DNA of 64,000 bases from Oligoflexia bacterium. GTDB taxonomy: Bacteria > Bdellovibrionota > UBA1018 > CAIMNF01. The stretch is from the NCBI GenBank assembly GCA_903831745.1, contig CAIKYX010000130.1, positions 5,653-69,652 of the forward strand, given 5' to 3'. Shown piece by piece: positions 10,020 through 51,923 of this stretch (its first letter is position 1; each line of letters starts with the position of its first letter). Below the pieces are notes generated by a model. It saw only the letters and a list, made by a program, of their open reading frames with translations, had not been told where the DNA came from and ran no database searches. Made by a program: the position numbers and the translations under genes.

Positions 10020-10038
10020 TAGGTGTCGGACACCTATT
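10018..10038. terminator. Bidirectional intrinsic-terminator-like hairpin between convergent glyQS and the GT4 gene
   Basis: Perfect palindrome aataggtgtc g gacacctatt (8-10 bp stem) in the 21-nt gap between the two stop codons. Confidence 0.45.
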
Positions 10039-10040
10039 GA

Positions 10041-33886: not shown

Positions 33887-35347
33887 TTGAAAAGCCTGAT
33901 TTATAATGGAACTCATTCGCAAGTTTCGATCGACATCCTGAAAGGGATCCTCGCCTCCTCACCCGCCCTTGAAGATGTGTGCATTATTTCTTCAGTTGCT
34001 GCGAAGCCTGAAGAAATCGATTTCAAGCAAATCCGCCATCAGGAATTCGATTATTTTAAGGTTCATGATGCCATTTATCCTGAAATCACAGCGCTTCAGC
34101 AAGGGCTGATGCTCGACGGCCCCAGACTCGATCAGATGTCTTCCTATTGGTTCGTCGCTCTTAAAATGATGGATCGGCTGTCACCCGAAATTGCCCTCAA
34201 TTACCACACGCGCATGGAGCTTCTTCTCAATCACATCCGTTTTTGGGATGCGTACCTGACTGAATACAAAGTCGATTGCTACATGGGAATGAATTATCCC
34301 CACGAGGTTTTTGATTACGTCATTTATGCGCTTTGCAAATCGAAGGGTATTCGCACCCTGTTCTTCGATACACCTCAAGTTCCGGGTTATGTTCAACTGA
34401 TTGATTCGGTAGAAGAAAATAATCCTCAAATTAAAAAACTGATTGAAGCCCAGCCAGCCCCTGCGAACATCAGGCTCGAACCCAGACTCGAGGAGTATTA
34501 CCAACGTCAGACTACGAATTATCAGACCCCGAAATACATGCAAAAGAATCTGGCCAGTCTGAAGCGCGAAACCTCTACGGTCCAACTCATTCAACGTTTC
34601 TTTACCCGCTCTTGGTCGCGGATCAAGCGTGCCGTGACGCTGAGGCATCTCAATTATGACCGCGTGATTAAAATTCTTTATTTTAATACCCTCTTTGGTT
34701 CAAGGGCAGAACGAAAACTCAAACAGGCCTACCAAGCATTGGTCAGCATTCCCGACTTTTCAAAACCGTATATTTTTGTTCCGCTTCATTTTCAACCCGA
34801 ATGCACCACCAGCCCCCAAGGCGGTTATTTTGTGTTTCAAGAGCTCCTGATCGAGATGTTAGAGCGCACTTTGCCCGAAGGGCACCTGATCTACGTCAAG
34901 GAACATCCGATTCAACGATTACACGGACGCTCAGCCGGATTTTATCAAAAAATTGCAGCATTTAAGAAAGTCAGACTCGTTCCACTCGAAACCAGTGCAC
35001 AAGACCTCATCAAAAGCAGCCTCGCCGTTGCTACGGTAACCGGCACCGCGGGATGGGAAGGACTCTTCAAGAATAAGCCCGTATTCTTGTTTGGATCGGT
35101 ATTCTTTCAATATGCCCCGGGAGTATATACGATTCGAAGTGAAAGCGACTGTAGGCTTGCACTCAAAGAAATTCTCTCTCGAACCACTCCATTCGATTTT
35201 TCGAGAGAGCTCAGATATTTTTTATCTAAGGTACCAGAATTCATGATTCGCGGATGGATCGATTCTTCCTATGAAGATGTTGCGGGCATCACTTACCCCG
35301 AAAACCTCAAAAACCTCGTTACCGCGGTTCAGAATCGCCTTCGATAA
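33887..35347 (+). CDS. Capsule_synth (KpsC/KpsS)-like putative glycosyltransferase (paralog of 31749..33794 N-domain)
   Basis: 486 aa. Apparent TTG start with a GAGGA RBS. Motifs YIFVPLHFQPECTTSP, LIYVKEHP and SSLAVATVTGTAGWEGLFKNKPVFLFGSVFFQY parallel the KpsS/KpsC signature (LQV..D / KxHP / S..GfEAl..gKPV). Confidence 0.6.
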   Translation: MKSLIYNGTHSQVSIDILKGILASSPALEDVCIISSVAAKPEEIDFKQIRHQEFDYFKVHDAIYPEITALQQGLMLDGPRLDQMSSYWFVALKMMDRLSPEIALNYHTRMELLLNHIRFWDAYLTEYKVDCYMGMNYPHEVFDYVIYALCKSKGIRTLFFDTPQVPGYVQLIDSVEENNPQIKKLIEAQPAPANIRLEPRLEEYYQRQTTNYQTPKYMQKNLASLKRETSTVQLIQRFFTRSWSRIKRAVTLRHLNYDRVIKILYFNTLFGSRAERKLKQAYQALVSIPDFSKPYIFVPLHFQPECTTSPQGGYFVFQELLIEMLERTLPEGHLIYVKEHPIQRLHGRSAGFYQKIAAFKKVRLVPLETSAQDLIKSSLAVATVTGTAGWEGLFKNKPVFLFGSVFFQYAPGVYTIRSESDCRLALKEILSRTTPFDFSRELRYFLSKVPEFMIRGWIDSSYEDVAGITYPENLKNLVTAVQNRLR

Positions 35348-35351
35348 AATC

Positions 35352-36677
35352 CTAAAGGATTTTTCTGAAAACAGGCTTGGCCACGTCACCTACCAAGAAC
35401 TTCTGATACCCGCCTTCGAGCGCCTTTTGATAAACCTCGAGAGTACCGCCCAACGCTTCCATGAAAGAGTCCGCTTCAGCTTTCTCGTGAGAAAAACAAG
35501 GCACAAACACACCTTGAAACAACACGCCTCGCTTGATCATTTCTTGAAGCGCCAGGGTGCGCATTCCTGGACACACTGTATTTTCTTTGTTCTTAAAAAT
35601 AAACATCGGAAACCACTCGCTCGGCACAAACTGAACGTAATCGGCCAAACCATTTTTTTGAATCAGTGCTTTGGCCGCTTCCGAAAAGTAATTTCCAATT
35701 TGATGATTGTGTTGAAGCACATTCTTGGTCTTGAATTCGTGAATAGTGGCAATCGCTGCCGCGAGCGATATCGTTTCGCCGCCATGAGTACTGGAAATCA
35801 AAAATACTTTCTCATCACCCTTCTTTCGAATTCCCCCCAGCTCCATGACCTCTTTCTTTCCGGTCAGGGCGCAAAATGAAAAACCGTTGGCAATTCCCTT
35901 ACCCCACGTCGCCATGTCGGGCACCACGCCGTACTTCTTGATTGAGCCAGGAAAGTCGGTTTTAAAACCGGTAATCATCTCGTCGACAATAAAAAGCGCA
36001 CCATTTTTAGCGCAAATTTCTTGAATTTCTTTAAGGTAGGTCGGGGCGTGAATATTGCTCTTTTCGGGCTCTGAAATCACACAAGAAATCTGATTCGGGT
36101 ATTTTACAAACAGCTCTTTTAACGTTTCGAGATCTGTAGATTTGAAAGTCAGACTTAAATCAGAAAACTCTTCGGGCACTCCGCGGTTACAAGCCGTCTT
36201 TCCAATAAACCAATCATCATAAGAATAAAATGGATGATCCCCCGGAAAAGCCACTAATTTTCGATTGGTCTTTGCTCGAGCAAGCTTTACAGCGGCAGTG
36301 GTGACGGTAGATCCGTTCTTTGCAAACTTGATCATGTCGTGGCCTGGCGTGAGCGACAAAAAAGCCTCAGCAGTCTGACGCTCGAGCACTGACGGTCGTT
36401 GAAAATTTACACCATCCTCGAGTGCGCGTCGTACCGCTTCATTGACCGGCTCATAGGCATGACCCAAACTCACCGAAGTTAGTCCCATCGAACAATCCAG
36501 ATATTTATTTTCATCCAGATCCCAAACATAAGCTCCCTTGCCTCTCAGGATCGCAGCCGGTGCTTGTTCTGGAAACTGGTCGTCTCCTTTTGAATAGGTG
36601 TGCGCCCCCCCCGGAATCAGGTCGTGAATGACTTTTCGGTATTCGTTTGATTTTTGAAATTGAGTAATGAAGTTCAT
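35352..36677 (-). CDS. Class-III (glutamate-1-semialdehyde aminomutase-like) PLP-dependent aminotransferase
   Basis: 441 aa. GAHTYSKG, DCSMGLTSVSLGHAY, FIVDEMITGFK, and PLP-lysine context MATWGKGIANGFS. Confidence 0.85.
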   Translation of the reverse strand: MNFITQFQKSNEYRKVIHDLIPGGAHTYSKGDDQFPEQAPAAILRGKGAYVWDLDENKYLDCSMGLTSVSLGHAYEPVNEAVRRALEDGVNFQRPSVLERQTAEAFLSLTPGHDMIKFAKNGSTVTTAAVKLARAKTNRKLVAFPGDHPFYSYDDWFIGKTACNRGVPEEFSDLSLTFKSTDLETLKELFVKYPNQISCVISEPEKSNIHAPTYLKEIQEICAKNGALFIVDEMITGFKTDFPGSIKKYGVVPDMATWGKGIANGFSFCALTGKKEVMELGGIRKKGDEKVFLISSTHGGETISLAAAIATIHEFKTKNVLQHNHQIGNYFSEAAKALIQKNGLADYVQFVPSEWFPMFIFKNKENTVCPGMRTLALQEMIKRGVLFQGVFVPCFSHEKAEADSFMEALGGTLEVYQKALEGGYQKFLVGDVAKPVFRKIL

Positions 36678-36687
36678 AATTACGTCC

Positions 36688-37362
36688 TTATTCCTGAATC
36701 AAGGCCAGATAGTCCCGCCAAGGACGATCGTACCCTATTTGTTTCACTAGTTTTGAAATGACTTGAAAATCTTCTTCGCGATCGACAGTCAGGCGGATTT
36801 TGCTTTGATCAATACCCTGGGCATGATTTCCGAGCTTAAATATTTCGGGATGTTCCCAAATATACGGGGTAACATGTTCGGTCTCGCGAGGTTTCGACGC
36901 TTCATCAAAAGCCCGTTTCAGAGCACTGAATCGAAAGATTTCTACATCGAGTCCATCCGGATAAGTCGCAGGGTGAACATTCGAATAGTAATCAAAATCC
37001 GATTTTTCGAATTTTTGCAGCATTTCGTCGATCATCGCACCGTCGTTCAAAGGACAATCAGAGGTAACTCGAATGACTGTCTCGGGTTGATAGCGTTCGG
37101 CTGCGCGGTAAAACCGTTCAAGCACATGGTGAAGTGACCCGCGATAAGAAAGACAGCCCATTTTTGTTGCAATCGAAACAATTTCTACCGACTCGGGCTC
37201 GTCCGTTGTTGCCACCATGATTGCGTCAGAAAGATGCGACCACTTAAGTCGGTGCAAATGAATCTCAAGTAGAGTCACTCCATCGATGGTCTTCAGAACT
37301 TTGCCCGGAAGCCTGGTTGAACCAAAGCGAGCCTGAGTGATGATCAGAGTTTTCATTTCCAA
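36688..37362 (-). CDS. pseF: Pseudaminic acid cytidylyltransferase (CMP-NeuAc synthetase family)
   Basis: 224 aa. MEMKTLIITQARFGSTRLPGKVLK (CTP_transf_3 signature). Confidence 0.8.
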   Translation of the reverse strand: MEMKTLIITQARFGSTRLPGKVLKTIDGVTLLEIHLHRLKWSHLSDAIMVATTDEPESVEIVSIATKMGCLSYRGSLHHVLERFYRAAERYQPETVIRVTSDCPLNDGAMIDEMLQKFEKSDFDYYSNVHPATYPDGLDVEIFRFSALKRAFDEASKPRETEHVTPYIWEHPEIFKLGNHAQGIDQSKIRLTVDREEDFQVISKLVKQIGYDRPWRDYLALIQE

Positions 37363-38222
37363 GCCCTCGGATCAATCCATTTCGGATTTTCAATCTGGAT
37401 ACTCGATATTTGGTCGATGATACCTGGGCTTAAAATCTGACTTTGAACAGAAAGGTTATCCATCAGCTGCCTTTGACTTTCGACTCCGATAATGATCCGA
37501 TCGATTTCTTCGAAGTGCGAAGCATAGGCGAGAGCCAGATGGTTTACCGGTAACCCCATTTGTTTTGAAAGTTCGCGCAAACGCAGAAGCTCTGGCTTCA
37601 GAGGCTTGAGCATCTCCGGCAAGAGTTCGAGTTCACGATAAAAAAGCCCCTGCAAAAACACCGAGCGCACATGGACTTCTTTTTTGTTGGCTTTGGCTCG
37701 CCTGATCCCAGGCCCTCGGAGCGACCAATTATCGAATAAATTAAAAGGTGTTTGAATGATATCGATGTGGTCAAGCAGAGCGGCAGCGTCGAGCTCCTCA
37801 ACAGTATAAACAGACACGCCGATTTTCTGAATCAGGCCACCGTTCTTTAGGTCAAGAAGTTCGTGCTTTTTCTCGAGGTCATGAACGTCGGAAAACTGAT
37901 GATAGGAATAGCCATATACTCCGCAAACACCCAACCGCTCCAGACTCGAACTCAGCTGTTTTTTCAAGCTTGCTTCGTTAGATTTGAATTTGGTCAGAAT
38001 TTTAAAATGATGGTTTGGATGTTTTAAAAAATAACTTCCGATGATTTGTTCGCTCTCGCCGTAACTCTCGGCAGTATCCAGATAACGGATTCCTTCGCGT
38101 TCACAGAGATCCAGGATCAAGAAGGCTTCGCCTTCGCTCGGTTTTCCGGTTTGATTGTTAATGCCATAAGGCAATCCCAATTGAACCGTACCCAAGACCA
38201 GTTTCTCTTGAAGAGAGTTCAT
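37353..38222 (-). CDS. Aldo/keto reductase
   Basis: 289 aa. LVLGTVQLGLPYGINNQ...LDTAESYGESEQIIG is the AKR N-terminal signature. Translationally coupled to pseC (upstream) and pseF (downstream). Confidence 0.8.
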   Translation of the reverse strand: MNSLQEKLVLGTVQLGLPYGINNQTGKPSEGEAFLILDLCEREGIRYLDTAESYGESEQIIGSYFLKHPNHHFKILTKFKSNEASLKKQLSSSLERLGVCGVYGYSYHQFSDVHDLEKKHELLDLKNGGLIQKIGVSVYTVEELDAAALLDHIDIIQTPFNLFDNWSLRGPGIRRAKANKKEVHVRSVFLQGLFYRELELLPEMLKPLKPELLRLRELSKQMGLPVNHLALAYASHFEEIDRIIIGVESQRQLMDNLSVQSQILSPGIIDQISSIQIENPKWIDPRAWK

Positions 38223-39375: not shown

Positions 39376-40386
39376 TTACGCCTCGAAATGGTGGTCAACA
39401 TGTTCCTTGATCTGGACCCTTAATTCTTCAGCCGACAACCATTCTGTGTTTTCGCCCGAATTGTATTTAAACCCTTCGGTAACAAATTTTGCCGAAAACT
39501 TTTTCAGGTAATCGTCTTTCTTCCAGTTCGGATGACTTGGAATGATGACATAATACTTTCCGCAATCGAGCGTATTCAGCGAATCTGATTCAGTAATCAT
39601 CTCTTCGTGTAACTTTTCGCCCGAGCGAATTCCCACGATCTCGGTCTTACATTTCGGACCAATGGCTTTTGCCATTTCGAGAATTCGATAAGAAGGAATC
39701 TTCGGGACGAAAATCTCGCCGCCCCAGGAATTTTCGAGCGCATGAAGTACCATCTTTACACCCTCTTCTAGCGTAATATTGAAACGGGTCATGTTTTCGT
39801 GCGTTACTGGCAGCGTTCCGGTCGAACGCATTTTCATGAAAAACGGAACCACAGAGCCGCGAGAGCCAAGCACGTTTCCGTAGCGGACCACCGAAAAAGT
39901 GAGATCGCGTTTTCCCTTAATATTATTGGCAGCAATGAAAAGCTTGTCCGAGCATAGTTTGGTTGCACCATACAGATTCACCGGTGCCGCCGCCTTATCG
40001 GTCGAAAGCGCAACCACCTTGGTGACACCGCAATCGAGGGCTGCGTTGATGACATTTTCGGCGCCGAAAATATTGGTGTTGATACATTCCATTGGATTGT
40101 ACTCGGCAGTCGGAACCTGCTTGAGCGCCGCTGCATGGATGATGATGTCGACACCTTCACAAGCACGTTTCATGCGGGCACCATCTCGAACATCACCAAT
40201 GAAATATCTCATTTGCGGATATTTCTTCGGATCAAATTGCTGGGCCATTTCGAATTGCTTGAGTTCGTCCCGTGAGTAAACAATTAATTTTTTTACTTCG
40301 GGATAAAGCTCCAGAACCATCTGAATGAATTTTTTTCCGAAAGATCCGGTTCCACCGGTTACCAATATGGTTTTACCTTTTAGCAT
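39376..40386 (-). CDS. pseB: UDP-N-acetylglucosamine 4,6-dehydratase (inverting)
   Basis: 336 aa. MLKGKTILVTGGTGSFGKKFIQMVLELYPEVKKLIVYSRDELKQFEM...HAAALKQVPTAEYNPMECINTNIFGAENV...YGATKLCSDKLF is near-identical in pattern to Campylobacter/Helicobacter PseB (FlaA1). Confidence 0.92.
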   Translation of the reverse strand: MLKGKTILVTGGTGSFGKKFIQMVLELYPEVKKLIVYSRDELKQFEMAQQFDPKKYPQMRYFIGDVRDGARMKRACEGVDIIIHAAALKQVPTAEYNPMECINTNIFGAENVINAALDCGVTKVVALSTDKAAAPVNLYGATKLCSDKLFIAANNIKGKRDLTFSVVRYGNVLGSRGSVVPFFMKMRSTGTLPVTHENMTRFNITLEEGVKMVLHALENSWGGEIFVPKIPSYRILEMAKAIGPKCKTEIVGIRSGEKLHEEMITESDSLNTLDCGKYYVIIPSHPNWKKDDYLKKFSAKFVTEGFKYNSGENTEWLSAEELRVQIKEHVDHHFEA

Positions 40387-42089
40387 ATTCCACCTCTATC
40401 TTTTTTCAGCTCCAGGGTTCTGGTAGCAATTTTATCGAAACTTGATTTGTGACTGATGATAATGGTCGTAATTTCTTTGAGAATGCCTTCGATCGAACGA
40501 ATGAATTTGGATTCTGTTTCGCCATCGAGATTGGCTGTCGCTTCATCGAGAATCAGGATCTGGGGCTTTCGAACCACGCCACGTGCGATGGATAAACGCT
40601 GCTTTTGTCCGGTCGACATGGGCGTTTGTTCTTGAATGAAATAATCGAGAGCAAATCGCTCGTCAGTGAGTTGCGCTTTTAAAAGAGCGTCTTTCATCTC
40701 CGCATCGGTCACTGTTTCTGGACTATGGTGACCGAACAAGAGGTTTTCGCGAATGGTTCCTGCAATCATATAGGGTTCGGGCCCGACATAGGCCACTCGT
40801 TCGAACAAACTGTTTTTTACAGATTCAATGGGCGCACCATTGATCAGCACCCCACCCCGGCTGGGCTTAAGTAGACCGAGCACCAGCATCAAAAGCGTGC
40901 TTTTACCGACTCCCGATTCGCCCTTGATCAGCAGCACCTGACCACGCCCCACCTCGAGGCTCAAATCATTGAATAGCTTCGGACCGCTGACATAACCAAA
41001 ATCGACGTTCTTAAGCTGAATCGAAACACCTTGCTCGCATGAAAGCGGAAGAACCGGAAACTTCTTCTCGGAATCTTCTTTTGCTTTTTGCTGACTCAGA
41101 CGTTCGTGCCATTGATAGATTTCCTTGAACCCTCCGAGATGAAGTCTGAATTCAGAAAGGGCAATATTGGCATCGCTCGCCCCTTGAGCTAGCCTGATAA
41201 AAAGATAGAAAAACGAAATCAGGGTAATCGCAGGAGTATGAATGTAGGCGATGCTGATATAGGTGATCGAACTGATGACAAAAATGCCAATGATATTCGG
41301 AAAGAAATTTTTTACAGAAGAGGCAACGAAATACGAACGGTAGTGCTGCTCGTAAACCACCAGAGCCGTATTCGCTCGTTTGATTTCACGATCTAACAAA
41401 CCATAGATCTTCAGCAAGAAATGGTGCCTCAGGCCTTCCATCAAAATCTTACTGACATTCTCCCACTGCCCACGAAAGCCATCTCCTGCTTTTTTGATGC
41501 CGGAATTGAACCGCCTGAGAGGGACAAGAAAAATACCGAGAAAGGTAAGCCCGATCAGCATCTCGATCGGTGCAAGCTTAAGCCCCATGGCAAAAAACAA
41601 AAAGGAAGAAGTTCCGACTAGCGTGAGTTGCGACAAGGACTGAAGCACTGAACCCGCCTGTGCCACACGTTCGGTAAAAATAGTAATGACCTGATGTGCA
41701 GAAACATCTTCGGCCTTGAGAAGCGCATACTCGAGCGTTCGAGAACGCTGAAGGCGAACGAACGCCTGCCCCGTCACGCCAGCAAGATAGGATCGGATCA
41801 TGTAAGCCACACCGCGGGCTACTCCGAACGTAAACAGAATCAAGACGGCTGAAAGAAGACTTGTCGGATACCACGCCGGCAATTTAAGGTCAGGCGACTT
41901 TACCAAGCCAATCGCCTGAAGAAATCCTTGAAGCACCGGAATAAACGACGCTTCGATCAGGAACATGAAAATTCCAAAGACGGTGGAAACAAAGAAAAGT
42001 CTCCAGACTTCCTTACCTAAAAAATTCTTAAACTTCCGAAATTGCTGCAGGTACTTTTGAATCATGTTTTGATTGAAAAAGGGTACCAA
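40380..42089 (-). CDS. ABC exporter, fused TMD-NBD half-transporter (type I exporter, MsbA-like fold)
   Basis: 569 aa. Six N-terminal TM helices, Walker A GESGVGKST, signature LSGGQKQRLSIARG (as read on the protein), Walker B ILILDEATANLD. First gene of the minus-strand operon that continues into pseB-pseC-AKR-pseF. Confidence 0.85.
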   Translation of the reverse strand: MVPFFNQNMIQKYLQQFRKFKNFLGKEVWRLFFVSTVFGIFMFLIEASFIPVLQGFLQAIGLVKSPDLKLPAWYPTSLLSAVLILFTFGVARGVAYMIRSYLAGVTGQAFVRLQRSRTLEYALLKAEDVSAHQVITIFTERVAQAGSVLQSLSQLTLVGTSSFLFFAMGLKLAPIEMLIGLTFLGIFLVPLRRFNSGIKKAGDGFRGQWENVSKILMEGLRHHFLLKIYGLLDREIKRANTALVVYEQHYRSYFVASSVKNFFPNIIGIFVISSITYISIAYIHTPAITLISFFYLFIRLAQGASDANIALSEFRLHLGGFKEIYQWHERLSQQKAKEDSEKKFPVLPLSCEQGVSIQLKNVDFGYVSGPKLFNDLSLEVGRGQVLLIKGESGVGKSTLLMLVLGLLKPSRGGVLINGAPIESVKNSLFERVAYVGPEPYMIAGTIRENLLFGHHSPETVTDAEMKDALLKAQLTDERFALDYFIQEQTPMSTGQKQRLSIARGVVRKPQILILDEATANLDGETESKFIRSIEGILKEITTIIISHKSSFDKIATRTLELKKDRGGIC

Positions 42090-42182
42090 TAAATAGCTGC
42101 CCCAGCAACGTTTAACCCATAATATCGTTTAATTTTAAAGGGTTTTTGTTCATTTTTTGCTTTTATGATACACTGAAGCCCA

Positions 42183-42950
42183 ATGATTCCTGATGAATTC
42201 AGATTAGGGCTGTTTCAATGTGACCTCACCTGGGAAAACACTTCAGCCAACCTCTCCAGACTCGAAGCTCTCGGCCCCGAGTTCGCAGGCACCTGCGACT
42301 TGCTGCTGGTTCCCGAAACCTTTTCAACGGGCTTTACCTCAAAACCTGCCGGACTCGCACTCAATGAGCAAAACGGCGCGCTCGAACGAATCATTCAGGT
42401 GGCTAAAAACCTTAAAACCCACGTAGCAGGATCATTCATCTGGAAACATGAAAACACCTACCGCAATCGCTTTATACTGGTAAACGAACTGGGAATTCAG
42501 GGGCACTACGACAAACATCATCTTTTTGGTCTAGGTCAAGAGACCCAGTTATTTCAAGCCGGAATAGAGAGGACCACTTGGATGGTCGGTGGCTTCAAGA
42601 TTGCCCCGTTTGTTTGTTATGACTTGAGATTTCCAGAATGGTGCGGAAATTCCGAAAAGTGCGATTTGATGATTTTTTGCGCAAATTGGCCCGAGGCCCG
42701 AGTCAGCCATTGGAAGACGTTGCTGAACGCAAGGGCAATCGAGAATCAATGCTACGTTGCAGGCGTGAATCGAATCGGGCGCGACGGAAACCAACTCACC
42801 TATTCGGGCGACAGCCTGGTCATCGATGCGAACGGATCGACGCTTTTGGATTCAGGGGCGACCGAATCACTTAAAATAGTAAAACTATCAAAATCTAACC
42901 TGGCCGCTTACCGCAATAAACTACCGTTTTTGAACGACCGCTTTCAGTAA
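42183..42950 (+). CDS. Carbon-nitrogen hydrolase family (nitrilase/omega-amidase-like)
   Basis: 255 aa. Starts MIPDEFRLGLFQCDLTWEN. The catalytic E-K-C triad context includes ...VCYDLRFPEW (Cys). Confidence 0.78.
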   Translation: MIPDEFRLGLFQCDLTWENTSANLSRLEALGPEFAGTCDLLLVPETFSTGFTSKPAGLALNEQNGALERIIQVAKNLKTHVAGSFIWKHENTYRNRFILVNELGIQGHYDKHHLFGLGQETQLFQAGIERTTWMVGGFKIAPFVCYDLRFPEWCGNSEKCDLMIFCANWPEARVSHWKTLLNARAIENQCYVAGVNRIGRDGNQLTYSGDSLVIDANGSTLLDSGATESLKIVKLSKSNLAAYRNKLPFLNDRFQ

Positions 42951-44896
42951 CCCCAAAGATGCTGAAGACTGACTGCACCTGCTTCAGAACTGGTCACAAT
43001 CTGGGCATTCATGTCTGCATCAGAGGATGAAATACAAACACCACCGAAACCTTCTGGCAAAAATTCGCTCAGCTCCGGAAATACCTCATGCAGCCACAAA
43101 TGATGAACACCAAACGCGGGCACGTTCAGATCTTTTTCAATTTTTAAGCCTTTTGGGCTATAAATCTTAAGTTTATAGCGAGCTTCGCCCGGATAATTTA
43201 ACGAGCCACTTCCGTTTACCAGCGAGATTGCGGTTCTAAAGCCAGAATGATTCAGAACACGTCCGACCACATTCGTATTCGCATTGATCGAACGGGTAGG
43301 ATGAAGCCAGTGTGGAAAATCCTTGAACATGACGCCGACATTTCGCCAACAATTTTGAAACTCGGTAAAATCGCGGTCATGGGTCTTACGATTCCTGATC
43401 ACCAAATCACCCCAGGCCACCCATTTGCGTGGATCCCAATTGGTGTTTGAAAAATCTGGCTCAACCACCATCAGGCGTGCCTCATTCTTTTTAGGAAAGT
43501 CCCTTAGTACCTCTGAACAAAAAATATGTCCTGGTGATTTCTGTTCGTACTTGAGCTCGCCTATCTTGCGGCCCGAACCATCAAATACGTGAACTATAAA
43601 ACGACTCATTCGCGGATTGGCCCACTCGAAAGTAAATCCGTACTCATGTAAATCATTTTCCGGCAAAACCGGTACTGCGTGCGGATAGATCATGTATCCA
43701 GCTGTACGCATTTTTTGCATCCATTCGTTCGACTCACCCGGAGTAAATTCAACCGAATTTTCCTTCAACGCCTGGGATGCCATGTGGTTTCCGAGGAGTA
43801 CTGGCCGCTGAGTATTAAGCCCGCCTTGCGCCTCTTCGAATAAATACCAAAAACAGCATCCATAACCCCTGAAACTCAGGCCTACGTTGGCAAAACCTTC
43901 GGTGGGCTTGCGCTTTTCAAACACGACTTCCTCGAGTGGAACATTCTGATTGCGCTTGACGATCTCAACCCCGTCTACCGTCATTTGGGTTAACGGAATT
44001 TCATGCGATTGCATGTCCATTTCGTAATTCGGAATCGTGGCGACGATTTTACCACTCGTGATCAGACTGGCAGCAACTATCGTCGACTCTTCAGTGGCCG
44101 GACCGTAATCATGCCCGCCATGCAGCGACGTAATTGATCCCTTCCAATGCAAATCAGACCAAACTCGCCAGCGACGATGCCGTTTTCTCGTCAATTGAGG
44201 ATGATGGGTAAACACTTCAAATACCGCAGGCCCCACCCTGACCGGCAAGGCGTCACTTAATCTTAAATGAAAGGTTTCGCCGGGGCTCAGCAGGACTTGA
44301 TTTTCGTATCTCGAACTCCAGTCGCGCACCCTCACGTTTACCAAAACCGGCTCTTTTGCGCCGAAAAATTCGCCATAGTGATTGAACAGATAAAAATCAG
44401 CATCTTCGGCTTCTGTCGGAACCGGAATGGTCGAACCCCCGAACTCAAAATCCGCACCTTCCCACAAAACAGGAATCGATAGATTCTTTTTCTTCAGGAT
44501 TTTTAGAATCGCAGGATAGGCGGTCTTCACATCACGCCCACCGACCAGAATTGCATCGAGCGAAGCAAAGTCCGCTCCGGACAATGGTGTCGCGCCCTTG
44601 AGTACGTCTTCACCCCGAAGCGATATCCATTTCCATTTCGTCGAATCAGGAGCGAGTTCACGAACCGCACCTTGAAAGGCAGAATCGCCGCAAAGCAGAA
44701 TTCGTTGCCAATTCTTATCCGAGATTTTCTTCAGCAAAGGTGCCAGTTCTTGTGTGACCGTTCGCTGATCTTGCGGCACCACATTTCGATTTTTGTATTT
44801 TTCGCGATTGAGAACCATTCGTCCTCGAAACGCTTTTGGATCCGTGGTTAAAAGCTTAGCCGCTGTAGAAAATTTGCGAAAAAGTACCGGTATCAT
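42944..44896 (-). CDS. Large hypothetical protein (650 aa), no confidently recognised domain
   Basis: Long uninterrupted ORF. N-terminal Rossmann-like segment RILLCGDSAFQGAVREL...LDAILVGGRD. Many Trp/His-rich stretches. Translationally coupled (4-nt overlap) to the upstream FkbM-family methyltransferase. Confidence 0.6.
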   Translation of the reverse strand: MIPVLFRKFSTAAKLLTTDPKAFRGRMVLNREKYKNRNVVPQDQRTVTQELAPLLKKISDKNWQRILLCGDSAFQGAVRELAPDSTKWKWISLRGEDVLKGATPLSGADFASLDAILVGGRDVKTAYPAILKILKKKNLSIPVLWEGADFEFGGSTIPVPTEAEDADFYLFNHYGEFFGAKEPVLVNVRVRDWSSRYENQVLLSPGETFHLRLSDALPVRVGPAVFEVFTHHPQLTRKRHRRWRVWSDLHWKGSITSLHGGHDYGPATEESTIVAASLITSGKIVATIPNYEMDMQSHEIPLTQMTVDGVEIVKRNQNVPLEEVVFEKRKPTEGFANVGLSFRGYGCCFWYLFEEAQGGLNTQRPVLLGNHMASQALKENSVEFTPGESNEWMQKMRTAGYMIYPHAVPVLPENDLHEYGFTFEWANPRMSRFIVHVFDGSGRKIGELKYEQKSPGHIFCSEVLRDFPKKNEARLMVVEPDFSNTNWDPRKWVAWGDLVIRNRKTHDRDFTEFQNCWRNVGVMFKDFPHWLHPTRSINANTNVVGRVLNHSGFRTAISLVNGSGSLNYPGEARYKLKIYSPKGLKIEKDLNVPAFGVHHLWLHEVFPELSEFLPEGFGGVCISSSDADMNAQIVTSSEAGAVSLQHLWGY

Positions 44897-45912
44897 AAAT
44901 TAGGCCAACCCCGTTTCATCCAGTAAATGGTCATGTCGTCGTTCATCCGAAGCTTGCGTCTTACTCGTCGCACCAGATTGCCGATTCGATCATCCCGCTC
45001 GCGCAATCGCGGACGCGGGGCAACTGACTTGATGGCTTCGATCATTGCTGCAGATTCGTCTGCGGTAAACAAACCCTGTGCAGTGGCTCGATCCAGCAAC
45101 CAGAACGCAAGATCAAAAAACTGATAGGTACACGCACAAATCAGTGCTTTGGTCAGAAAAGTTTTTGAACGGAATAGGTTTCCGTTTGATGAGCTTCTAA
45201 AATAAAGTGCATCCCCCCCGACCAACTCGGCCCCAAGATGAGCTGTGGCTCTGGCGGTATTCAAATGTCTCCTAATGAAATAGTTTTCGACACCATCCTT
45301 GCAATAATACGATCGCGCCGTTCGAAGATCGAGAAGTTCGAAACCCTTTGAAAGCATGAAAGCATGCACATCACTGAACATCGGTTGACCTTTGTAAATC
45401 TCATGAAACTCGACTTCCGTTTCGACACAAATCACATCATTGAGTTGTTCATCGGTCATAGAAGAAAGGATGTCGAGTTCGGAACCCTGAGTATCAAGTT
45501 TGATCAGATTGGGAGCGCCCTTTTTTTGCTTCTGCAAAAAATCGGCATAGGACGAACACTGAATCTCGACCTGACGCACATTACCCCAATAGTCTGAACT
45601 TCCGAATTTATCGACAAATACAGGATTCGGTGGATAAATCGAAGCACCGGTCGTGCGCATCGGCACATAAAGCGTGCAAGGGCCGGTTTTCTTGGCAAGC
45701 CCGATGGGATGCCATTGAATTTCTGGTCTCGAAATCTTCGACTGACGCTCACATTCCTTCTCATTGGGCTCGAACGCATCGACTTTCATCAACTCGAGGT
45801 AAGGAAACCAGTGTTCGCAAATTCCACCATCGGCTCCGACGTCGGCCGCGAGAACGTTCTCAGAGGCAAGAAACTTGCGTAAAATTGCATTAAATTTCGC
45901 CGATTTTGTCAT
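44893..45912 (-). CDS. FkbM-family SAM-dependent methyltransferase
   Basis: 339 aa. LAADVGADGGICEHWF...VDAFEPNEKECERQ matches the Methyltransf_21 (FkbM) core (DvGAn.G....FEPnp). Confidence 0.72.
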   Translation of the reverse strand: MTKSAKFNAILRKFLASENVLAADVGADGGICEHWFPYLELMKVDAFEPNEKECERQSKISRPEIQWHPIGLAKKTGPCTLYVPMRTTGASIYPPNPVFVDKFGSSDYWGNVRQVEIQCSSYADFLQKQKKGAPNLIKLDTQGSELDILSSMTDEQLNDVICVETEVEFHEIYKGQPMFSDVHAFMLSKGFELLDLRTARSYYCKDGVENYFIRRHLNTARATAHLGAELVGGDALYFRSSSNGNLFRSKTFLTKALICACTYQFFDLAFWLLDRATAQGLFTADESAAMIEAIKSVAPRPRLRERDDRIGNLVRRVRRKLRMNDDMTIYWMKRGWPNL

Positions 45913-46041
45913 GCCGTGAGGGTATCAACAGTCGGATTTTTGTGTCAAGGATGATGCCAGATCCGAGGAATGCGCGCAGACCAAATTTCGCTTGCTTCTT
46001 TATGGCTCAGGCTCTAAAAAATTCAATGGTATCGGTATTCT

Positions 46042-47112
46042 ATGAGTGAATTTCATTTCAAAGCAGCAGTCTTGGAGAAAACCGGACATCCCCTGAAGAT
46101 GTTCGATCGCATTCCAGTACCCGCGCTCAAACCCGGACAACTCCTCGTCAAAATGGCCTATAGCGGAGTTTGCAGAAGCCAACTGATGGAAGCGCGGGGC
46201 CTTCGAGGCAAAGATCACTACCTTCCCCATCTTTTGGGACACGAAGGCTCAGGAAAAGTCATCGCGGTCGGATCTGAAGTCACCAAAGTCAAACCGGGCG
46301 ATTTCGTGATTCTCGGCTGGATCAAGGGGCTGGGGCTAGAAAGCGGTGGAACCCAATTTCACGTCGATGGTCAGATCATCAATGCAGGCGGCATCACTAC
46401 TTTTTCGGATTACACCGTCATTTCAGAAAATCGCTGCGTAAAAATTCCTGCAGGACTTCCGTTGGATATTGCCGTTTTGTTCGGTTGCGCCCTGCCCACC
46501 GGCGCTGGAATCGTGCTGAACGAAATCGAACTCAAACCCCAAGACACAGTCGTCGTCTGGGGATTAGGAGGAATCGGGCTGAGCGCTTTGATGGCGACCC
46601 AACTTTTTGGTTGCAAGCAAGTGATCGCGGTAGATGTAGAAGATTCGAAACTTGCGCTTGCCCGCGAATTCGGAGCGACCCATACCATCAATTCGACCCA
46701 AGAAAACGCCGTCGAAAAGATCCGCGCACTGACGAACGATCAAGGCGCAGACTACGCCATCGAGGCGTCGGGTTTTGCTAAATCAATCGAACAGGCTTTC
46801 GAGGCAGTAAAAAGAAACGGCGGACTTTGCATTTTTGCATCTCATCCGGCGAATCACGAAAAGATCGAGCTTGATCCTTTCGAGCTAATTTGCGGCAAAC
46901 AAATTCGCGGAAGCTGGGGCGGCGGAGTTAAACCCGATACCGATATTCCACGAATGGCAGAACTCTATCTGAAGGGCAAGTTGCCACTCCAGAAGCTCTT
47001 GTCGAAACCCTATGCGCTGAACGAAATCAATCAGGCGCTCGATGACTTGGAGAACCGAAAAGTCACCCGTGCGATCATCGAAATTGATCCAACCTTAAAG
47101 GCAATCCCATGA
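46042..47112 (+). CDS. Zinc-dependent medium-chain alcohol/polyol dehydrogenase
   Basis: 356 aa. Catalytic-zinc motif GHEGSGKV, structural Cys cluster, Rossmann motif VVWGLGGIGLSAL. Confidence 0.85.
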   Translation: MSEFHFKAAVLEKTGHPLKMFDRIPVPALKPGQLLVKMAYSGVCRSQLMEARGLRGKDHYLPHLLGHEGSGKVIAVGSEVTKVKPGDFVILGWIKGLGLESGGTQFHVDGQIINAGGITTFSDYTVISENRCVKIPAGLPLDIAVLFGCALPTGAGIVLNEIELKPQDTVVVWGLGGIGLSALMATQLFGCKQVIAVDVEDSKLALAREFGATHTINSTQENAVEKIRALTNDQGADYAIEASGFAKSIEQAFEAVKRNGGLCIFASHPANHEKIELDPFELICGKQIRGSWGGGVKPDTDIPRMAELYLKGKLPLQKLLSKPYALNEINQALDDLENRKVTRAIIEIDPTLKAIP

Positions 47113-48614
47113 ACCACTCTTCGAATGAGCTTAGCCCTGAATCTCAGAAAATCATTGCCACCATCCGCGAAACTGCAGGACCTAATCGAAAAATTTCTTT
47201 TGTGTCGGGATACTTTAACGTCCTTCATCCGGGGCATTTGCGCCTGCTTCGCTTTGCCAAAGAATGCGGAGACTTTTTGGTGGTCGGCGTACTCGAGAGC
47301 GGCCCTTACAGTTCGCCACTTCTTTCAGAATCCCTGAGGCTTGAAGGAATTCTTTCTACCAGTTGGGTCGATTTCGGATTCATCCTGAAGGACAATCCCA
47401 AGGAATTTATTCGTGCGCTTCAACCCGCCACTGTTGCCAAAGGAAATGAATTCGCCGACCAGGAAAATGCAGAGCAAGCCATTGTCGAATCTTACGGCGG
47501 AAAGCTTCTTTTCAATTCAGGCGACTTTATTTTTTCATCGATCGATTTTCTCCGTAAAGAATTCAATCGCCTGAAATTTTCAGACATCGAAAAGCCGATG
47601 GATTTTCCGAAACGCCATCAATTCAGCATGCAGCGATTGGCCCAGATCATCGATCTTTTTCCAAATGTCAACGCAACGGTCATCGGTGACTCGATTGTAG
47701 ATGAATACATTACCTGTGATCCGGTAGGCATGTCGCAAGAGGACCCTACCCTGGTGATCACCCCCGTACTGACGGAACGCTTTCTCGGCGCCGCTGGAAT
47801 CGTCGCGGCCCATGCGGTTTCACTTGGCGCAAATATCGATTTCTTCACCGTCACCGGAAATGATGCCGAAGGAAAATACATTCACGAACAAACCGAACGC
47901 TACAAAGTCAAATCACACATTTACGAAGACACGAGCCGTCCTACCACACTCAAGCAACGCTTTCGGGCTACCGGCAAGACCCTGCTTAGAGTGAACCGCT
48001 TTAGGCAGCACGAGATCAATACCAAACTACAGGAAGTCATTTTCAAAGACTTGGTCAAGAACCTGGCCGACAAGCAGCTTCTGATTTTTTCTGATTTTAA
48101 CTATGGTTGCCTGCCTCAAACCCTGATTGAAAAGCTGATCACCCATTGCAAGAAAAACAATATCAAGATGGTGGCCGACAGCCAGTCTTCATCACAAGTG
48201 GGCAACGTGGCCCGTTTTCATGATATGGACCTGATCACGCCGACCGAGCGTGAAGCCCGCCTGGCAGTTCAGGACTTTCGATCAGGCATCGTCATGATGG
48301 CGCGCGAACTGCAAAAAGCGTCGAATGCCAAGAACATTTTTGTAACCATGGGTAAGGAAGGCGTCATGATTCACGCCGATGTTTCGGGCGAGAACCAATG
48401 GCTGACCGACCAATTACCCTCGATGAACTCGGCACCCGTAGATGTTTCTGGAGCGGGCGACTCGCTTTTCATTTGCTCATCTCTGGCTCTGGCCGCCGGT
48501 GCCAACATCTGGGAAAGTGCTTATTTGGGTTCTCTTGCAGCCGCAAGTCAGGTAGGAAGACTCGGAAACATTCCACTGACCAAGCAAGAACTCTTAAAGG
48601 ACACTCTCAATTGA
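47109..48614 (+). CDS. Bifunctional sugar kinase / nucleotidyltransferase, HldE (RfaE)-like with inverted domain order (cytidylyltransferase-like domain N-terminal, PfkB kinase C-terminal)
   Basis: 501 aa. N-terminal ISFVSGYFNVLHPGHLRLLRFAKECGDFLVVGV is the HxGH nucleotidyltransferase domain, similar to HldE domain II. C-terminal VIGDSIVDEYI...GAAGIVAAHAVSLGA...DVSGAGDSLF is a ribokinase/PfkB domain, similar to HldE domain I. ATGA overlap with the upstream ADH. Confidence 0.8.
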   Translation: MNHSSNELSPESQKIIATIRETAGPNRKISFVSGYFNVLHPGHLRLLRFAKECGDFLVVGVLESGPYSSPLLSESLRLEGILSTSWVDFGFILKDNPKEFIRALQPATVAKGNEFADQENAEQAIVESYGGKLLFNSGDFIFSSIDFLRKEFNRLKFSDIEKPMDFPKRHQFSMQRLAQIIDLFPNVNATVIGDSIVDEYITCDPVGMSQEDPTLVITPVLTERFLGAAGIVAAHAVSLGANIDFFTVTGNDAEGKYIHEQTERYKVKSHIYEDTSRPTTLKQRFRATGKTLLRVNRFRQHEINTKLQEVIFKDLVKNLADKQLLIFSDFNYGCLPQTLIEKLITHCKKNNIKMVADSQSSSQVGNVARFHDMDLITPTEREARLAVQDFRSGIVMMARELQKASNAKNIFVTMGKEGVMIHADVSGENQWLTDQLPSMNSAPVDVSGAGDSLFICSSLALAAGANIWESAYLGSLAAASQVGRLGNIPLTKQELLKDTLN

Positions 48615-49306
48615 AAGCCCTCTTGCTTGCAGCCGGTCTCGGCACGCGCCTTCGCCCACTCACCCTCACCACACCCAAATGCCTGGTTCCCATTGCAGGC
48701 AAACCCCTTCTCGAATATTGGCTCGAAAAACTCGAATCAGAAAACATCGACACACTGATCAACACCCACTATATGAGCGAACTGGTGATTGAGTACCTAA
48801 AGGGGCATCCTCATCGAAATCGAATCGAAACCGTATCGGAAACAATCTTACTGGGTACCGGCGGAACCCTGTTAAAGAACCGAAAGTTCTTCGCAAATGA
48901 TTCGATCTTACTTGTTCATGCCGACAATCTTTCGCGCTTTTCTTTGCCGGCCTTTCAGAAGGCGCATGCCGAACGCCCGAGCGGTTGCGTAATGACCATG
49001 ATGACGTTTGAATCTCCGGCTCCAGAAACCTGCGGAATTCTCGAGTTAGATTCGCGCGGTGTCGTGACTCGCATGCACGAAAAAGTAAAAAATCCACCCG
49101 GAAATCTGGCCAACGCTGCGGTTTATATTCTCGAGCCCTCCATCATGGCGCATTTGGAAAGCTTGGGCCGCGACGTCATTGATTTCAGCACGGAGGTCAT
49201 TCCACATTTTCTGGGTAAGATCGCCACTTTTGCCAATACCGATTATCACCGCGACATCGGGTCGATCGAGAGTTACGAGAAAGCGAACCTCGATTTTAAG
49301 ACTTAA
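48611..49306 (+). CDS. Sugar-1-phosphate nucleotidyltransferase (HddC/GMP-like, GlmU-fold)
   Basis: About 231 aa. TTG start overlaps the upstream stop (TTGA). [36 protein letters not shown] is the G-x-G-T-R-L NTP-transferase motif. Confidence 0.78.
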   Translation: [231 protein letters not shown]

Positions 49307-50955: not shown

Positions 50956-51444
50956 TTACCCCGTTCGATCCAAATTATAAAAATGCTGAAAAAAGATCAA
51001 GATCTTCGCTAAACCGCCGGCCTTTGAGGTACACCGAAGCGATCCATCCGGTGCACGGGTCAGCCAATTTCCCTGCACTAACCAGTCTACTCGGCTGATA
51101 AACATCGAGTCAGGCGAATACGTGTGAAGAATCTGCTCGATCGTCAGTTCTTGATTCTCGCTCTGCCTGATTTCTTCCAGAATGCGGATCGAAACCGAAC
51201 GCTCCATCCCCACATAGAGATGAAAATACATGATGATGAACAAGGCATAGACGGCAATTCCAAGCGAAGTGACCAGAGCACCCTGGATAAGAAATCCAGC
51301 ACCAAATCCGAGAATCGCAAGCAAGATCAACAACTTCAGAGATGCTAGTGCTTTTAAATAACGCCAAATTACGAGATGCGCTCCCAGAAAAATCAGGAGG
51401 CTAAAAAGTGGAAACTTCAAATCCTGAAGCAGTTCGCAATTCAT
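50956..51444 (-). CDS. Membrane-anchored protein with C-terminal winged-helix-like domain (paralog 1)
   Basis: 162 aa. Two or three N-terminal TM helices, then SIRILEEIRQSENQELTIEQILHTY...ISRVDWLVQGNWLT...DGSLRCTSKAGGLAKI (MarR/winged-helix-like pattern). Confidence 0.5.
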   Translation of the reverse strand: MNCELLQDLKFPLFSLLIFLGAHLVIWRYLKALASLKLLILLAILGFGAGFLIQGALVTSLGIAVYALFIIMYFHLYVGMERSVSIRILEEIRQSENQELTIEQILHTYSPDSMFISRVDWLVQGNWLTRAPDGSLRCTSKAGGLAKILIFFQHFYNLDRTG

Positions 51445-51923
51445 CCTCCAGCTCCCATGCGAAGCATGGTTTTATAGCTTCGGCTCAGAAAGACGATCGC
51501 TTTAGAACGGGTAAAATCAGCCCGCAAGCGATTCTGATTCATAGTAAGTAAACCAGAGGCAGCCATTCCTTCGATTCGTTTTTTCAGGAGTCCAGTAGGA
51601 CCCATGCCATTTCCGTATTGAACCATCAACTCTGAAACCGTAATCGGCTGACGTTCATGCACGAGCTTGATGATGTGAAATGAAAACCCACGACAGATCA
51701 TCGAGAAAAACTCGAGATAAAATAAAAACACCGCAATATTAGTTACCAGGGCCGTGAGGAGTTCTTTTGAGTTCAGACAAAAAACCACCGCGCAGGCAAT
51801 GGTAAAAACGAGTGACCCAACCCACGAAAACACCATGGCTTTTGCGAAGCCATTTTTGAGGATGCGAAGAAGGATCACATGAGTCAGCATCAAAATGAGA
51901 CCGGACGTGATTCCTATGATCAT
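51441..51923 (-). CDS. Membrane-anchored protein with C-terminal winged-helix-like domain (paralog 2)
   Basis: 160 aa. Same architecture as 50956..51444 (SFHIIKLVHERQPITVSELMVQYGNGMGPTGLLKKRIEGMAASGLLTM). 4-nt overlaps with both neighbours. Confidence 0.5.
   Translation of the reverse strand: MIIGITSGLILMLTHVILLRILKNGFAKAMVFSWVGSLVFTIACAVVFCLNSKELLTALVTNIAVFLFYLEFFSMICRGFSFHIIKLVHERQPITVSELMVQYGNGMGPTGLLKKRIEGMAASGLLTMNQNRLRADFTRSKAIVFLSRSYKTMLRMGAGG

What the first reader, a model, noticed from the sequence alone, without database searches (positions are those of the whole stretch)
42944..45912. 650-aa orphan protein translationally coupled to an FkbM-family methyltransferase at the junction of the two sugar modules
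The large ORF has no motif I can assign. It shows a weak Rossmann-like N-terminus and Trp/His-rich segments. It overlaps by 4 nt the downstream end of an FkbM-type methyltransferase gene. That family typically O-methylates sugars in glycan/polyketide pathways. Its position between the Pse operon and the heptose module suggests a glycosyltransferase or glycan-modifying enzyme of an unrecognised family. A Maf/DUF115-like nonulosonate transferase is one possibility.
Basis: inference. Interest (0 to 1): 0.5.

Follow-up and report, generated by a model that had tools for sequence, protein, structure and literature searches.

The report
Unknown partner protein of sugar methyltransferase

Summary
A 650-aa ORF (42944-44896, minus strand) starts in an ATGA stop/start overlap with a genuine FkbM-family methyltransferase gene (44893-45912). 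It lies beside a verified PseB/C/G/I pseudaminic-acid operon within an LPS region.

The protein matches no Pfam, NCBIfam or PDB sequence. It is still conserved: 141 cluster representatives among 1.84 billion, about 30 of them full length, and every named one is 'hypothetical'.

Among 22 non-redundant loci with adequate flanks, 12 have the orthologous FkbM gene adjacent and 11 have a fused ABC exporter adjacent. Three have both and two have neither. One clade sits in sphingolipid-like lipid loci with no pse genes, yet keeps the same 32 invariant residues, seven of them His.

The site is therefore not Pse-specific. Best reading (0.36): a membrane-peripheral substrate-engaging partner for the methyltransferase and exporter. 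Close rival (0.32): a new-scaffold enzyme.

The parts
42944..44896 (-). 650-aa protein of an undescribed family ('BIG'), stop codon included
   Evidence: ORF. Homologues. AlphaFold model with pLDDT 93. No Pfam, NCBIfam or PDB sequence match.
44765..44896 (-). residues 1-44: two N-terminal helices, net charge +7, no transmembrane segment; proposed membrane-association element (inference)
   Evidence: Helices 2-18 and 20-38. The N-terminal ~40 aa carries +3 to +10 in almost all full-length core members while the rest is usually acidic. No Kyte-Doolittle window exceeds 1.6.
44459..44764 (-). residues 45-146: small Rossmann-like alpha/beta domain with no invariant residues
44111..44458 (-). residues 147-262: beta-sandwich 1, carrying H173, H240, R242, R244, S254, H259, H262
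   Evidence: Eight strands. Asn172 follows strand 2. Invariants. Weak in-register profile similarity to sandwich 4.
43772..44110 (-). residues 263-375: beta-sandwich 2, carrying P289, N290, R315, N370, H371
43322..43705 (-). residues 398-525: beta-sandwich 3 and following loop, carrying D507, D509, T511, E512, Q514, W517, R518, N519
42947..43291 (-). residues 536-650: beta-sandwich 4, probably the best TM1070/ASRT-like unit; it ends in the invariant ..LQHLWGY C-terminus. A separate ~550-aa family shares only this C-terminal ~110-residue domain.
44893..45912 (-). FkbM-family methyltransferase, the dedicated partner, with a family-specific ~140-aa C-terminal extension
   Evidence: PF05050 and TIGR01444 above cut-off. 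Orthologues at 34-52% identity lie next to BIG in L001, L003, L004, L005 and L008. An HMM built from them finds the orthologue next to BIG in many loci.
44893..44896 (-). ATGA stop/start overlap (translational coupling signal)
   Evidence: The same overlap occurs in L001.
40380..42089 (-). fused TMD-NBD ABC exporter (ABC_membrane + ABC_tran), a probable functional neighbour
   Evidence: Pfam. Below all NCBIfam equivalog cut-offs. 44% identical to the exporter next to BIG in L001. An exporter of this type lies within 1 kb of BIG in 11 of 22 well-flanked clusters.

Best explanation
The 650-aa protein is a cytoplasmic, membrane-peripheral partner protein of an undescribed family.

Shown:
- It consists of a basic N-terminal helical pair, a small Rossmann-like domain and four eight-stranded beta-sandwiches. 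At least two of these are of the TM1070/ASRT ('ASRAH') type.
- It is encoded as a conserved gene pair with its own orthologous FkbM methyltransferase. In other lineages it is paired with a fused TMD-NBD ABC exporter. In this window both are present.

Inferred:
- The cationic N-terminal helices hold it at the inner face of the cytoplasmic membrane.
- The sandwich array forms a single, highly constrained ligand site: 32 invariant residues, rich in His, Arg, Asp, Glu, Asn and Gln.
- That site engages a lipid-anchored, anionic surface-glycolipid precursor. Here this would be the pseudaminic-acid-containing LPS or capsule intermediate made by the flanking operon.
- It presents the substrate to the co-translated FkbM enzyme for O-methylation, and the product then goes to the neighbouring ABC exporter for flipping.

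On this reading it is the substrate-recognition and tethering subunit of a two-protein methylation/export module. This is analogous in logic to ASRAH tetrads appended to amidases and to the cap-then-export coupling of ABC-dependent O-antigen pathways. It is not itself a glycosyltransferase.

For: Partnership with methyl transfer.
- The ATGA overlap is conserved in the window and in L001.
- FkbM partners are orthologous and share a private C-terminal extension.
- The partner is adjacent in 12 of 22 well-flanked clusters. This includes divergent and convergent orientations and isolated pairs.
- In L005 both partners carry the same extra N-terminal class-I-methyltransferase-like domain (41% identity, E 2e-47).
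- O-methyltransferases flank a distant member in L011.

Partnership with export. A fused ABC exporter lies within 1 kb in 11 of 22 clusters, sometimes only 4 nt away. The window and L001 exporters are 44% identical.

Membrane proximity. The N-terminal ~40 residues are +3 to +10 in almost all full-length core members, and there is no TM segment.

Context. PseB, PseC, PseG and PseI are verified, and LPS genes (LpxB-LpxK, LpxD, GT9) lie in the window.
Against: - No binding or complex formation was tested. I could not inspect model coordinates, so the idea that the invariant residues form one pocket is inference.
- About 22 invariant polar residues, including seven His, stay identical in Pse-type and sphingolipid-type loci. 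That looks more like catalytic or metal-binding machinery than a lectin-like site, which would be expected to change with the ligand.
- Half of the well-flanked loci lack an adjacent FkbM gene, so the protein cannot be solely a methyltransferase adaptor.
- Similarity to ASRAH is structural only. There is no HMM-level match, and internal-repeat profile similarity is weak (E about 6e-4, probability 26-29%).
- The neighbouring exporter is of the ABC_membrane (MsbA/PglK-like) type, not the Wzm/Wzt type for which cap recognition is documented.
Confidence: 0.36

Rival explanations
1. It is an enzyme built on a new scaffold. The invariant His/Arg/Asp/Glu cluster, contributed by several beta-sandwiches, forms a catalytic centre that may bind a metal. 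This centre carries out a head-group or lipid-proximal modification common to Pse-type and sphingolipid-type pathways, for example a hydroxylation, elimination/epimerisation or transfer step. FkbM then O-methylates the product where present, and the ABC exporter flips it.
For: 32 residues are invariant (at most one exception) over 36 non-redundant members. They include H173, H240, H259, H262, H371, H529, H646, R242, R244, R315, R518, D507, D509, D628, E512, N370, N519, Q514, Q645 and Y650. They are identical in both genomic contexts, with only two class-specific positions. The protein is long (650 aa) and cytoplasmic, and it sits in biosynthetic operons. Conserved His residues lie at or near the ends of the last strands of three sandwiches (H259, H371, H646), with E512 in the last predicted strand of sandwich 3. 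This would suit a shared centre on a pseudo-symmetry axis, which is inference.
Against: No known enzyme fold is detected. All strong matches are non-catalytic beta-sandwiches or generic Rossmann halves. No cofactor-binding motif was recognised, and the Rossmann-like domain has no invariant residue. I cannot name a reaction that both contexts require. Invariant residues could instead staple the four domains together.
Confidence: 0.32
2. One reading: it is a nonulosonic-acid (Pse) glycosyltransferase of an unrecognised family, Maf/DUF115-like or sialyltransferase-like, that uses CMP-Pse.
For: It lies next to a complete Pse pathway here and in L003, L004, L008 and L013-L020. Distant members sit beside CMP-sugar synthetases, a KdsA-like gene (L010) and two GT30 Kdo-transferase homologues (L011). 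Arg- and His-rich sites are typical of CMP-sugar enzymes (general knowledge).
Confidence: 0.07
3. It is an ASRT-like intracellular sensor. It binds a sugar or metabolite and allosterically regulates the methyltransferase and/or the ABC exporter, without handling the substrate itself.
For: Stand-alone ASRAH proteins were proposed to act as small-molecule sensors that regulate neighbouring sugar enzymes and transporters through protein-protein contacts (PMC2739507). The fold match is to TM1070/ASRT. The protein is tightly linked to an enzyme or a transporter.
Against: It is much larger and far more constrained than the ~115-aa stand-alone sensors. The basic membrane-directed N-terminus and the stoichiometric, translationally coupled expression suggest a structural or handling role. 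The sensor role is itself only a prediction for ASRT proteins.
Confidence: 0.08

Closest known systems
TM1070 / ASRT (ASRAH superfamily, Pfam PF07100; PDB 1nc7, 2ii7)
   Different: There is no sequence-profile match. The four units are fused in one 650-aa chain with a Rossmann-like domain and basic N-terminal helices. It has its own large set of invariant His, Arg and acidic residues in place of the SHEshChhN signature. Its partners are an FkbM methyltransferase and an ABC exporter. It is cytoplasmic and occurs in biosynthetic rather than catabolic loci.
Cap-and-export modules of ABC-transporter-dependent O-antigen synthesis (WbdD methyltransferase/kinase terminator plus the Wzt carbohydrate-binding module; PMC3482155, PMC9445017)
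   Same: The logic is shared: a cytoplasmic methyltransferase modifies the lipid-linked glycan, a beta-sandwich module recognises it, and an ABC transporter exports it. All are encoded together, and the machinery is membrane-peripheral.
   Different: No sequence or fold match to WbdD or the Wzt CBM was found. The exporter here is a fused ABC_membrane-type half-transporter, not Wzm/Wzt. The beta-sandwich protein is separate and four-domain. The family also occurs without any methyltransferase.
Maf / DUF115 (PF01973) flagellin nonulosonate transferases
   Same: Large proteins of poorly understood mechanism encoded next to Pse/Leg biosynthesis genes.
   Different: No PF01973 match. The fold is dominated by beta-sandwiches. 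The window carries LPS genes, and the genes I annotated include no flagellar ones. The family is also found in loci without nonulosonate genes.
FkbM-family O-methyltransferases (PF05050, TIGR01444), for the upstream gene
   Same: The catalytic domain matches above the curated cut-offs.
   Different: This subfamily has a private ~140-aa C-terminal extension ending in FWxxRxWP and is nearly always adjacent to the 650-aa protein.

Membership tests
Maf / DUF115 (MptE-like, PF01973) | Sequence match to the PF01973 profile | tested here: not met
   No Pfam family at E<=1 for the window protein. None of 40 family members matches PF01973 at E<=0.1.
Maf / DUF115 (MptE-like, PF01973) | Genomic association with flagellin or flagellar glycosylation genes | tested here: not met
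   The genes scanned around it are LPS/lipid A, Pse, heptose-like and glycosyltransferase genes. No flagellar gene is among those annotated.
Glycosyltransferase folds (GT-A, GT-B, sialyltransferase GT29/42/52/80) | Structural similarity of a confident model to a solved GT of that fold | tested here: not met
ASRAH / ASRT superfamily (PF07100) | Eight-stranded beta-sandwich superposable on TM1070 | tested here: met
ASRAH / ASRT superfamily (PF07100) | Profile-level sequence similarity | tested here: not met
   No PF07100 hit. A profile of the C-terminal domain does not retrieve 1nc7 or 2ii7 at E<=10.
ASRAH / ASRT superfamily (PF07100) | Conserved Asn at the end of strand 2, and conserved Trp at the start of strand 1 (PMC2739507) | tested here: inconclusive
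   Asn follows strand 2 in all four units: N172 in 27/40, N290 in 32/40, N427 in 18/40, N561 in 31/40. No conserved Trp was seen at the strand 1 positions.
ASRAH / ASRT superfamily (PF07100) | Occurrence as dyads, tetrads or tetramers | tested here: inconclusive
FkbM methyltransferase family (upstream gene) | Match to PF05050 / TIGR01444 above the curated cut-off | tested here: met
   55.4 bits against 22.7, and 43.5 bits against 37.7.
Wzt-type carbohydrate-binding module / WbdD-type terminator | Sequence or fold similarity to the Wzt C-terminal CBM or to WbdD | tested here: not met
Wzt-type carbohydrate-binding module / WbdD-type terminator | Binding of the capped glycan terminus and dependence of export on it | not testable with these tools
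   Requires biochemistry and genetics.
Pseudaminic acid pathway (flanking operon) | PseB, PseC, PseG and PseI equivalog models above cut-off | tested here: met
   Scores against cut-offs: 523 vs 407.75, 480.8 vs 423.5, 192.2 vs 153.55, and 462.1 vs 340.25. The PseH-like domain and the cytidylyltransferase are below cut-off or generic.

The most novel reading that the evidence does not exclude
The four TM1070-like sandwiches assemble into an intramolecular pseudo-tetramer. Equivalent strand-end residues (H259, H371, H646, E512 and neighbours) would build a metal-dependent catalytic centre. That would make this the first enzyme class on an ASRAH scaffold. It would perform a previously unassigned modification of lipid-anchored anionic glycolipids, shared by pseudaminic-acid glycans and bacterial sphingolipid-type lipids, upstream of O-methylation and ABC-mediated flipping.
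Probability: 0.25. Interest if true: 0.78.

Novelty: new variant of a known kind. Interest (0 to 1): 0.55.

Why it matters
Nonulosonic-acid glycans and bacterial sphingolipids are surface molecules whose late tailoring and export steps are poorly assigned.

This family has no Pfam or NCBIfam model, is always annotated 'hypothetical', and is so far seen only in metagenomes and MAGs. It is a conserved, confidently foldable component that links a dedicated methyltransferase and/or a lipid-type ABC exporter in both kinds of locus.

Defining its role would do one of two things. It would add a substrate-recognition or hand-over component to models of glycolipid capping and flipping, or it would reveal a new catalytic scaffold.

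It would also give the ASRAH/TM1070 domain, whose function is still only predicted, a tractable and genetically anchored context.

Practically, a profile built from the alignment would allow these genes to be annotated as a family.

Tried and rejected
- Pfam and NCBIfam scans of the protein, 40 relatives and the distant ~550-aa group found nothing.
- PDB sequence searches with the single sequence, the family profile and the C-terminal-domain profile gave only noise.
- Foldseek against PDB gave only generic multi-Ig matches, with TM about 0.1.
- The AFDB library was unavailable.
- tblastn against 72,556 plasmids found no match, so no link to rhizobial rkp-type regions could be made.
- A second word-indexed homologue search with the alignment returned nothing new.
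- Cluster look-up showed only 'hypothetical protein' names.
- The promoter/terminator scan of 42000-46300 did not differ from shuffles.
- The Capsule_synth proteins of different loci are not detectably similar by BLASTP, so they are not a third orthologous member of the module.
- The gene upstream of BIG in L006 and L010 is not a diverged FkbM.
- One protein comparison failed on wrong coordinates.
- Literature searches for FkbM with pseudaminic or nonulosonic acid, and for ASRAH, found no description of this pairing.
- I considered a sialidase-like or lyase-like site (Arg cluster, QH..Y motif) and a hydroxylase-plus-O-methyltransferase pair. I could not test either, so they stay inside the generic 'enzyme' rival.
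- I could not identify the source organism.
Full report
**Observation**

One search lists a 650-aa ORF at 42944..44896 (-) and a 339-aa ORF at 44893..45912 (-). The sequence at the junction reads aatttATGAtaccg, so the upstream TGA stop and the downstream ATG share four bases. The upstream protein matches the FkbM domain PF05050 (55.4 bits, cut-off 22.7) and TIGR01444 (43.5 bits, cut-off 37.7).

The 3' end of the 650-aa ORF overlaps by 7 nt a convergent carbon-nitrogen hydrolase gene (42183..42950 +). In this window, therefore, the methyltransferase and the 650-aa gene form a two-gene unit.

The flanking minus-strand genes are a bona fide pseudaminic-acid pathway. PseB, PseC, PseG and PseI all exceed their NCBIfam equivalog cut-offs. 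On the other side lie GmhA-like and HldE-like genes, which match below cut-off. The wider window carries LpxB-LpxK, LpxD, BamA and a GT9 heptosyltransferase, so the setting is LPS and envelope biogenesis in a diderm bacterium.

**Is the gene real, and how rare is it?**

The protein has no Pfam, NCBIfam or PDB-sequence match. A word-indexed search of 5.8 billion proteins found three relatives, two of them at 42-46% identity. An exhaustive HMMER search of 1.84 billion cluster representatives found 141 hits at E<=1e-3. About 30 of these are full length (about 620-690 aa). A separate group of ~550-aa proteins shares only the C-terminal ~110 residues.

None of 40 members has any Pfam family, and none of 10 has an NCBIfam family. 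All names given by sources are 'hypothetical protein'. The named sources are MAGs of Dongiaceae, Terriglobia and Dormiibacterota. Loci range from 31 to 69% G+C. This is a real, widely scattered but rare family with no curated description.

**Structure**

With a 40-sequence alignment AlphaFold2 gave pLDDT 93 and pTM 0.89. The model contains:
- two N-terminal helices (residues 2-38);
- a small alpha/beta domain (residues 45-146);
- four blocks of about eight beta-strands each.

De Souza, Iyer and Aravind (PMC2739507) defined this 'ASRAH' superfamily as eight-stranded sandwiches predicted to bind sugars or small molecules. They describe an Asn closing strand 2 and note that the domains occur as tetramers, dyads or tetrads attached to enzymes. 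In this family an Asn follows strand 2 in all four units (N172, N290, N427, N561; conserved in 18-32 of 40 sequences).

Profile-profile comparison gives weak but in-register similarity between sandwiches 1/4 and 3/4 (E about 6e-4). There is no sequence-profile match to ASRT. The resemblance is therefore structural, and membership of the superfamily is only partly established.

The protein has no transmembrane segment. Its first ~40 residues carry +3 to +10 net charge in almost all full-length core members, while the rest is usually acidic. I read this as a membrane-association element; that is inference.

**Genomic company**

The first few loci showed the FkbM gene next to the protein, with PseB/PseC/NeuB/CMP-transferase genes nearby. 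The FkbM partners are orthologous (34-52% identity) and share a private ~140-aa C-terminal extension.

A metagenome scan added 75 loci. With HMM probes built in the sandbox I reduced 52 full-length genes to 36 clusters at about 90% identity. Among the 22 clusters with at least 2.5 kb on both sides:

| Feature near the gene | Clusters |
|---|---|
| Orthologous FkbM gene within 200 nt | 12 |
| Fused ABC_membrane/ABC_tran exporter within 1 kb | 11 |
| Both (window, L001, L081) | 3 |
| Neither | 2 |
| Nonulosonate genes within 10 kb | 8 (7 of them FkbM-type) |

The FkbM gene can be upstream, downstream, divergent or convergent, and some pairs stand alone. The exporter is sometimes only 4 nt away. 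The window's exporter is 44% identical to the one beside the L001 homologue.

One NJ clade (11 clusters) sits in a different, syntenic locus. That locus contains an alpha-oxoamine synthase (Spt-like), ACP, an AMP-binding enzyme, an epimerase/reductase, then this protein and one or two ABC exporters. It also holds DAGK_cat, CDP-OH_P_transf, an Elm1-like glycosyltransferase and a 2OG-oxygenase-like gene. From general knowledge this resembles bacterial sphingolipid loci.

More distant members lie beside CMP-sugar synthetases and a KdsA-like gene (L010), or directly after two GT30 Kdo-transferase homologues with O-methyltransferases on both sides (L011).

In L005 both the family member and its FkbM partner have acquired the same N-terminal class-I-methyltransferase-like domain (41% identity, E 2e-47). 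This is a fusion-type link between this protein and methyl transfer.

**The conserved site**

Over the 36 non-redundant full-length members, 32 residues are invariant with at most one exception:
- seven His (173, 240, 259, 262, 371, 529, 646);
- R242, R244, R315, R518;
- D507, D509, D628, E512;
- N370, N519, Q514, Q645;
- the C-terminal W648-G-Y650.

Only two positions differ systematically between FkbM-type and Spt/ABC-type members. No invariant residue lies in the Rossmann-like domain.

This result bears most directly on interpretation. Whatever the site does, it is the same in Pse loci and in loci without any nonulosonate genes. It therefore cannot be a Pse-specific donor or acceptor site.

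**Interpretation**

The specific proposals do not:
- there is no DUF115/Maf match and no GT fold;
- a KpsC/KpsS-type candidate Pse transferase is already present at 33887-35347;
- the family is not restricted to Pse loci.

Two readings remain close.

(a) Adaptor (0.36). ASRAH-type sandwiches are binding modules that accompany enzymes. The protein is stoichiometrically coupled to a complete methyltransferase and/or an exporter. One member is fused to a methyltransferase-like domain, and the protein carries a membrane-directed N-terminus. I therefore favour a membrane-peripheral substrate-engaging subunit. It would present the lipid-linked, anionic glycolipid intermediate to FkbM for O-methylation, and the product would then go to the ABC exporter. 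In logic this resembles cap-then-export in ABC-dependent O-antigen systems (PMC3482155, PMC9445017), without any homology to them.

(b) Enzyme (0.32). The number and kind of invariant residues, and their constancy across chemically different pathways, look more like a catalytic or metal centre on a new scaffold.

I could not inspect coordinates, run multimer predictions or search AFDB. Those three computations, followed by metal analysis, pull-downs and methylation assays with and without the protein, would decide between the two.

**Verdict**

The finding is real and more interesting than a routine hypothetical gene. It is an undescribed family with a confident, unusual architecture and two sharply defined genomic partnerships. 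I rate it a new variant of a known kind (ASRAH-type sandwich proteins in a new architecture and partnership), with interest 0.55.

Noticed in passing
L012, L024, L028-L030, L033-L035, L037-L040, L043, L045, L056, L061, L074 (gene at about 10001-11990 in the long loci): One clade of the family lies in a syntenic lipid locus. It contains a Spt-like alpha-oxoamine synthase, ACP, an AMP-binding enzyme, an epimerase/reductase, then this protein and one or two ABC exporters, plus DAGK_cat, CDP-OH_P_transf, an Elm1-like GT and a 2OG-oxygenase-like gene. It looks like a bacterial sphingolipid-type pathway with an unassigned component.
   Followed up: partly
L005:8150-9904 and L005:10001-12625 (P0023): The FkbM partner and the family member have both gained the same ~215-aa N-terminal class-I-methyltransferase-like domain (41% identity, E 2e-47).
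   Followed up: partly
window 33887-35347 (+): A 486-aa Capsule_synth (KpsC/KpsS-type, PF05159) protein lies on the opposite strand inside the Pse operon and is a plausible Pse transferase. Proteins with the same Pfam family occur in L003 and L008 but are not detectably similar by BLASTP.
   Followed up: partly
window 35352-38222 (-); L081:9892-14021: The Pse operon contains an aldo/keto reductase and a class-III aminotransferase flanking the cytidylyltransferase. The distant locus L081 repeats this set next to its BIG-FkbM-ABC trio, with the aminotransferase fused to the cytidylyltransferase, plus DegT and HldE-like genes. This suggests a modified CMP-activated sugar.
   Followed up: no
window 31749-33794 (-): A 681-aa protein whose last ~150 residues are PseH-like GNAT (below cut-off). 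The first ~530 residues have no family match.
   Followed up: no
window 42183-42950 (+): A carbon-nitrogen hydrolase (closest to the PRK10438 amidohydrolase model, below cut-off) is inserted on the opposite strand between the 650-aa gene and the ABC exporter. It overlaps the 650-aa ORF's 3' end by 7 nt. It is absent from the equivalent position in L001.
   Followed up: no
window 47109-48614 (+): An HldE-like bifunctional protein with the domain order reversed relative to the HldE model: cytidylyl/adenylyltransferase-like N-terminus and PfkB kinase C-terminus. It scores below the equivalog cut-offs. The next ORF (48398-49306) overlaps it by over 200 nt, and its NTP_transferase domain starts only at residue 73, so its true start is probably later.
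   Followed up: no
window 13190-15277 (-): LpxB and LpxK are fused in one 695-aa ORF.
   Followed up: no
P0085, P0086, P0090, P0094 and similar: A separate family of ~540-560-aa proteins shares only the C-terminal ~110-residue sandwich, including the ..QHLWG end. It has no Pfam or NCBIfam match. One example is flanked by a hexapeptide acyltransferase.
   Followed up: partly
window 50956-51923 (-): Two adjacent ~160-aa ORFs without family matches lie between a GT2 gene and the GmhA-like gene. One has a faint ABC-2 membrane-like hit, so they may be small membrane proteins.
   Followed up: no
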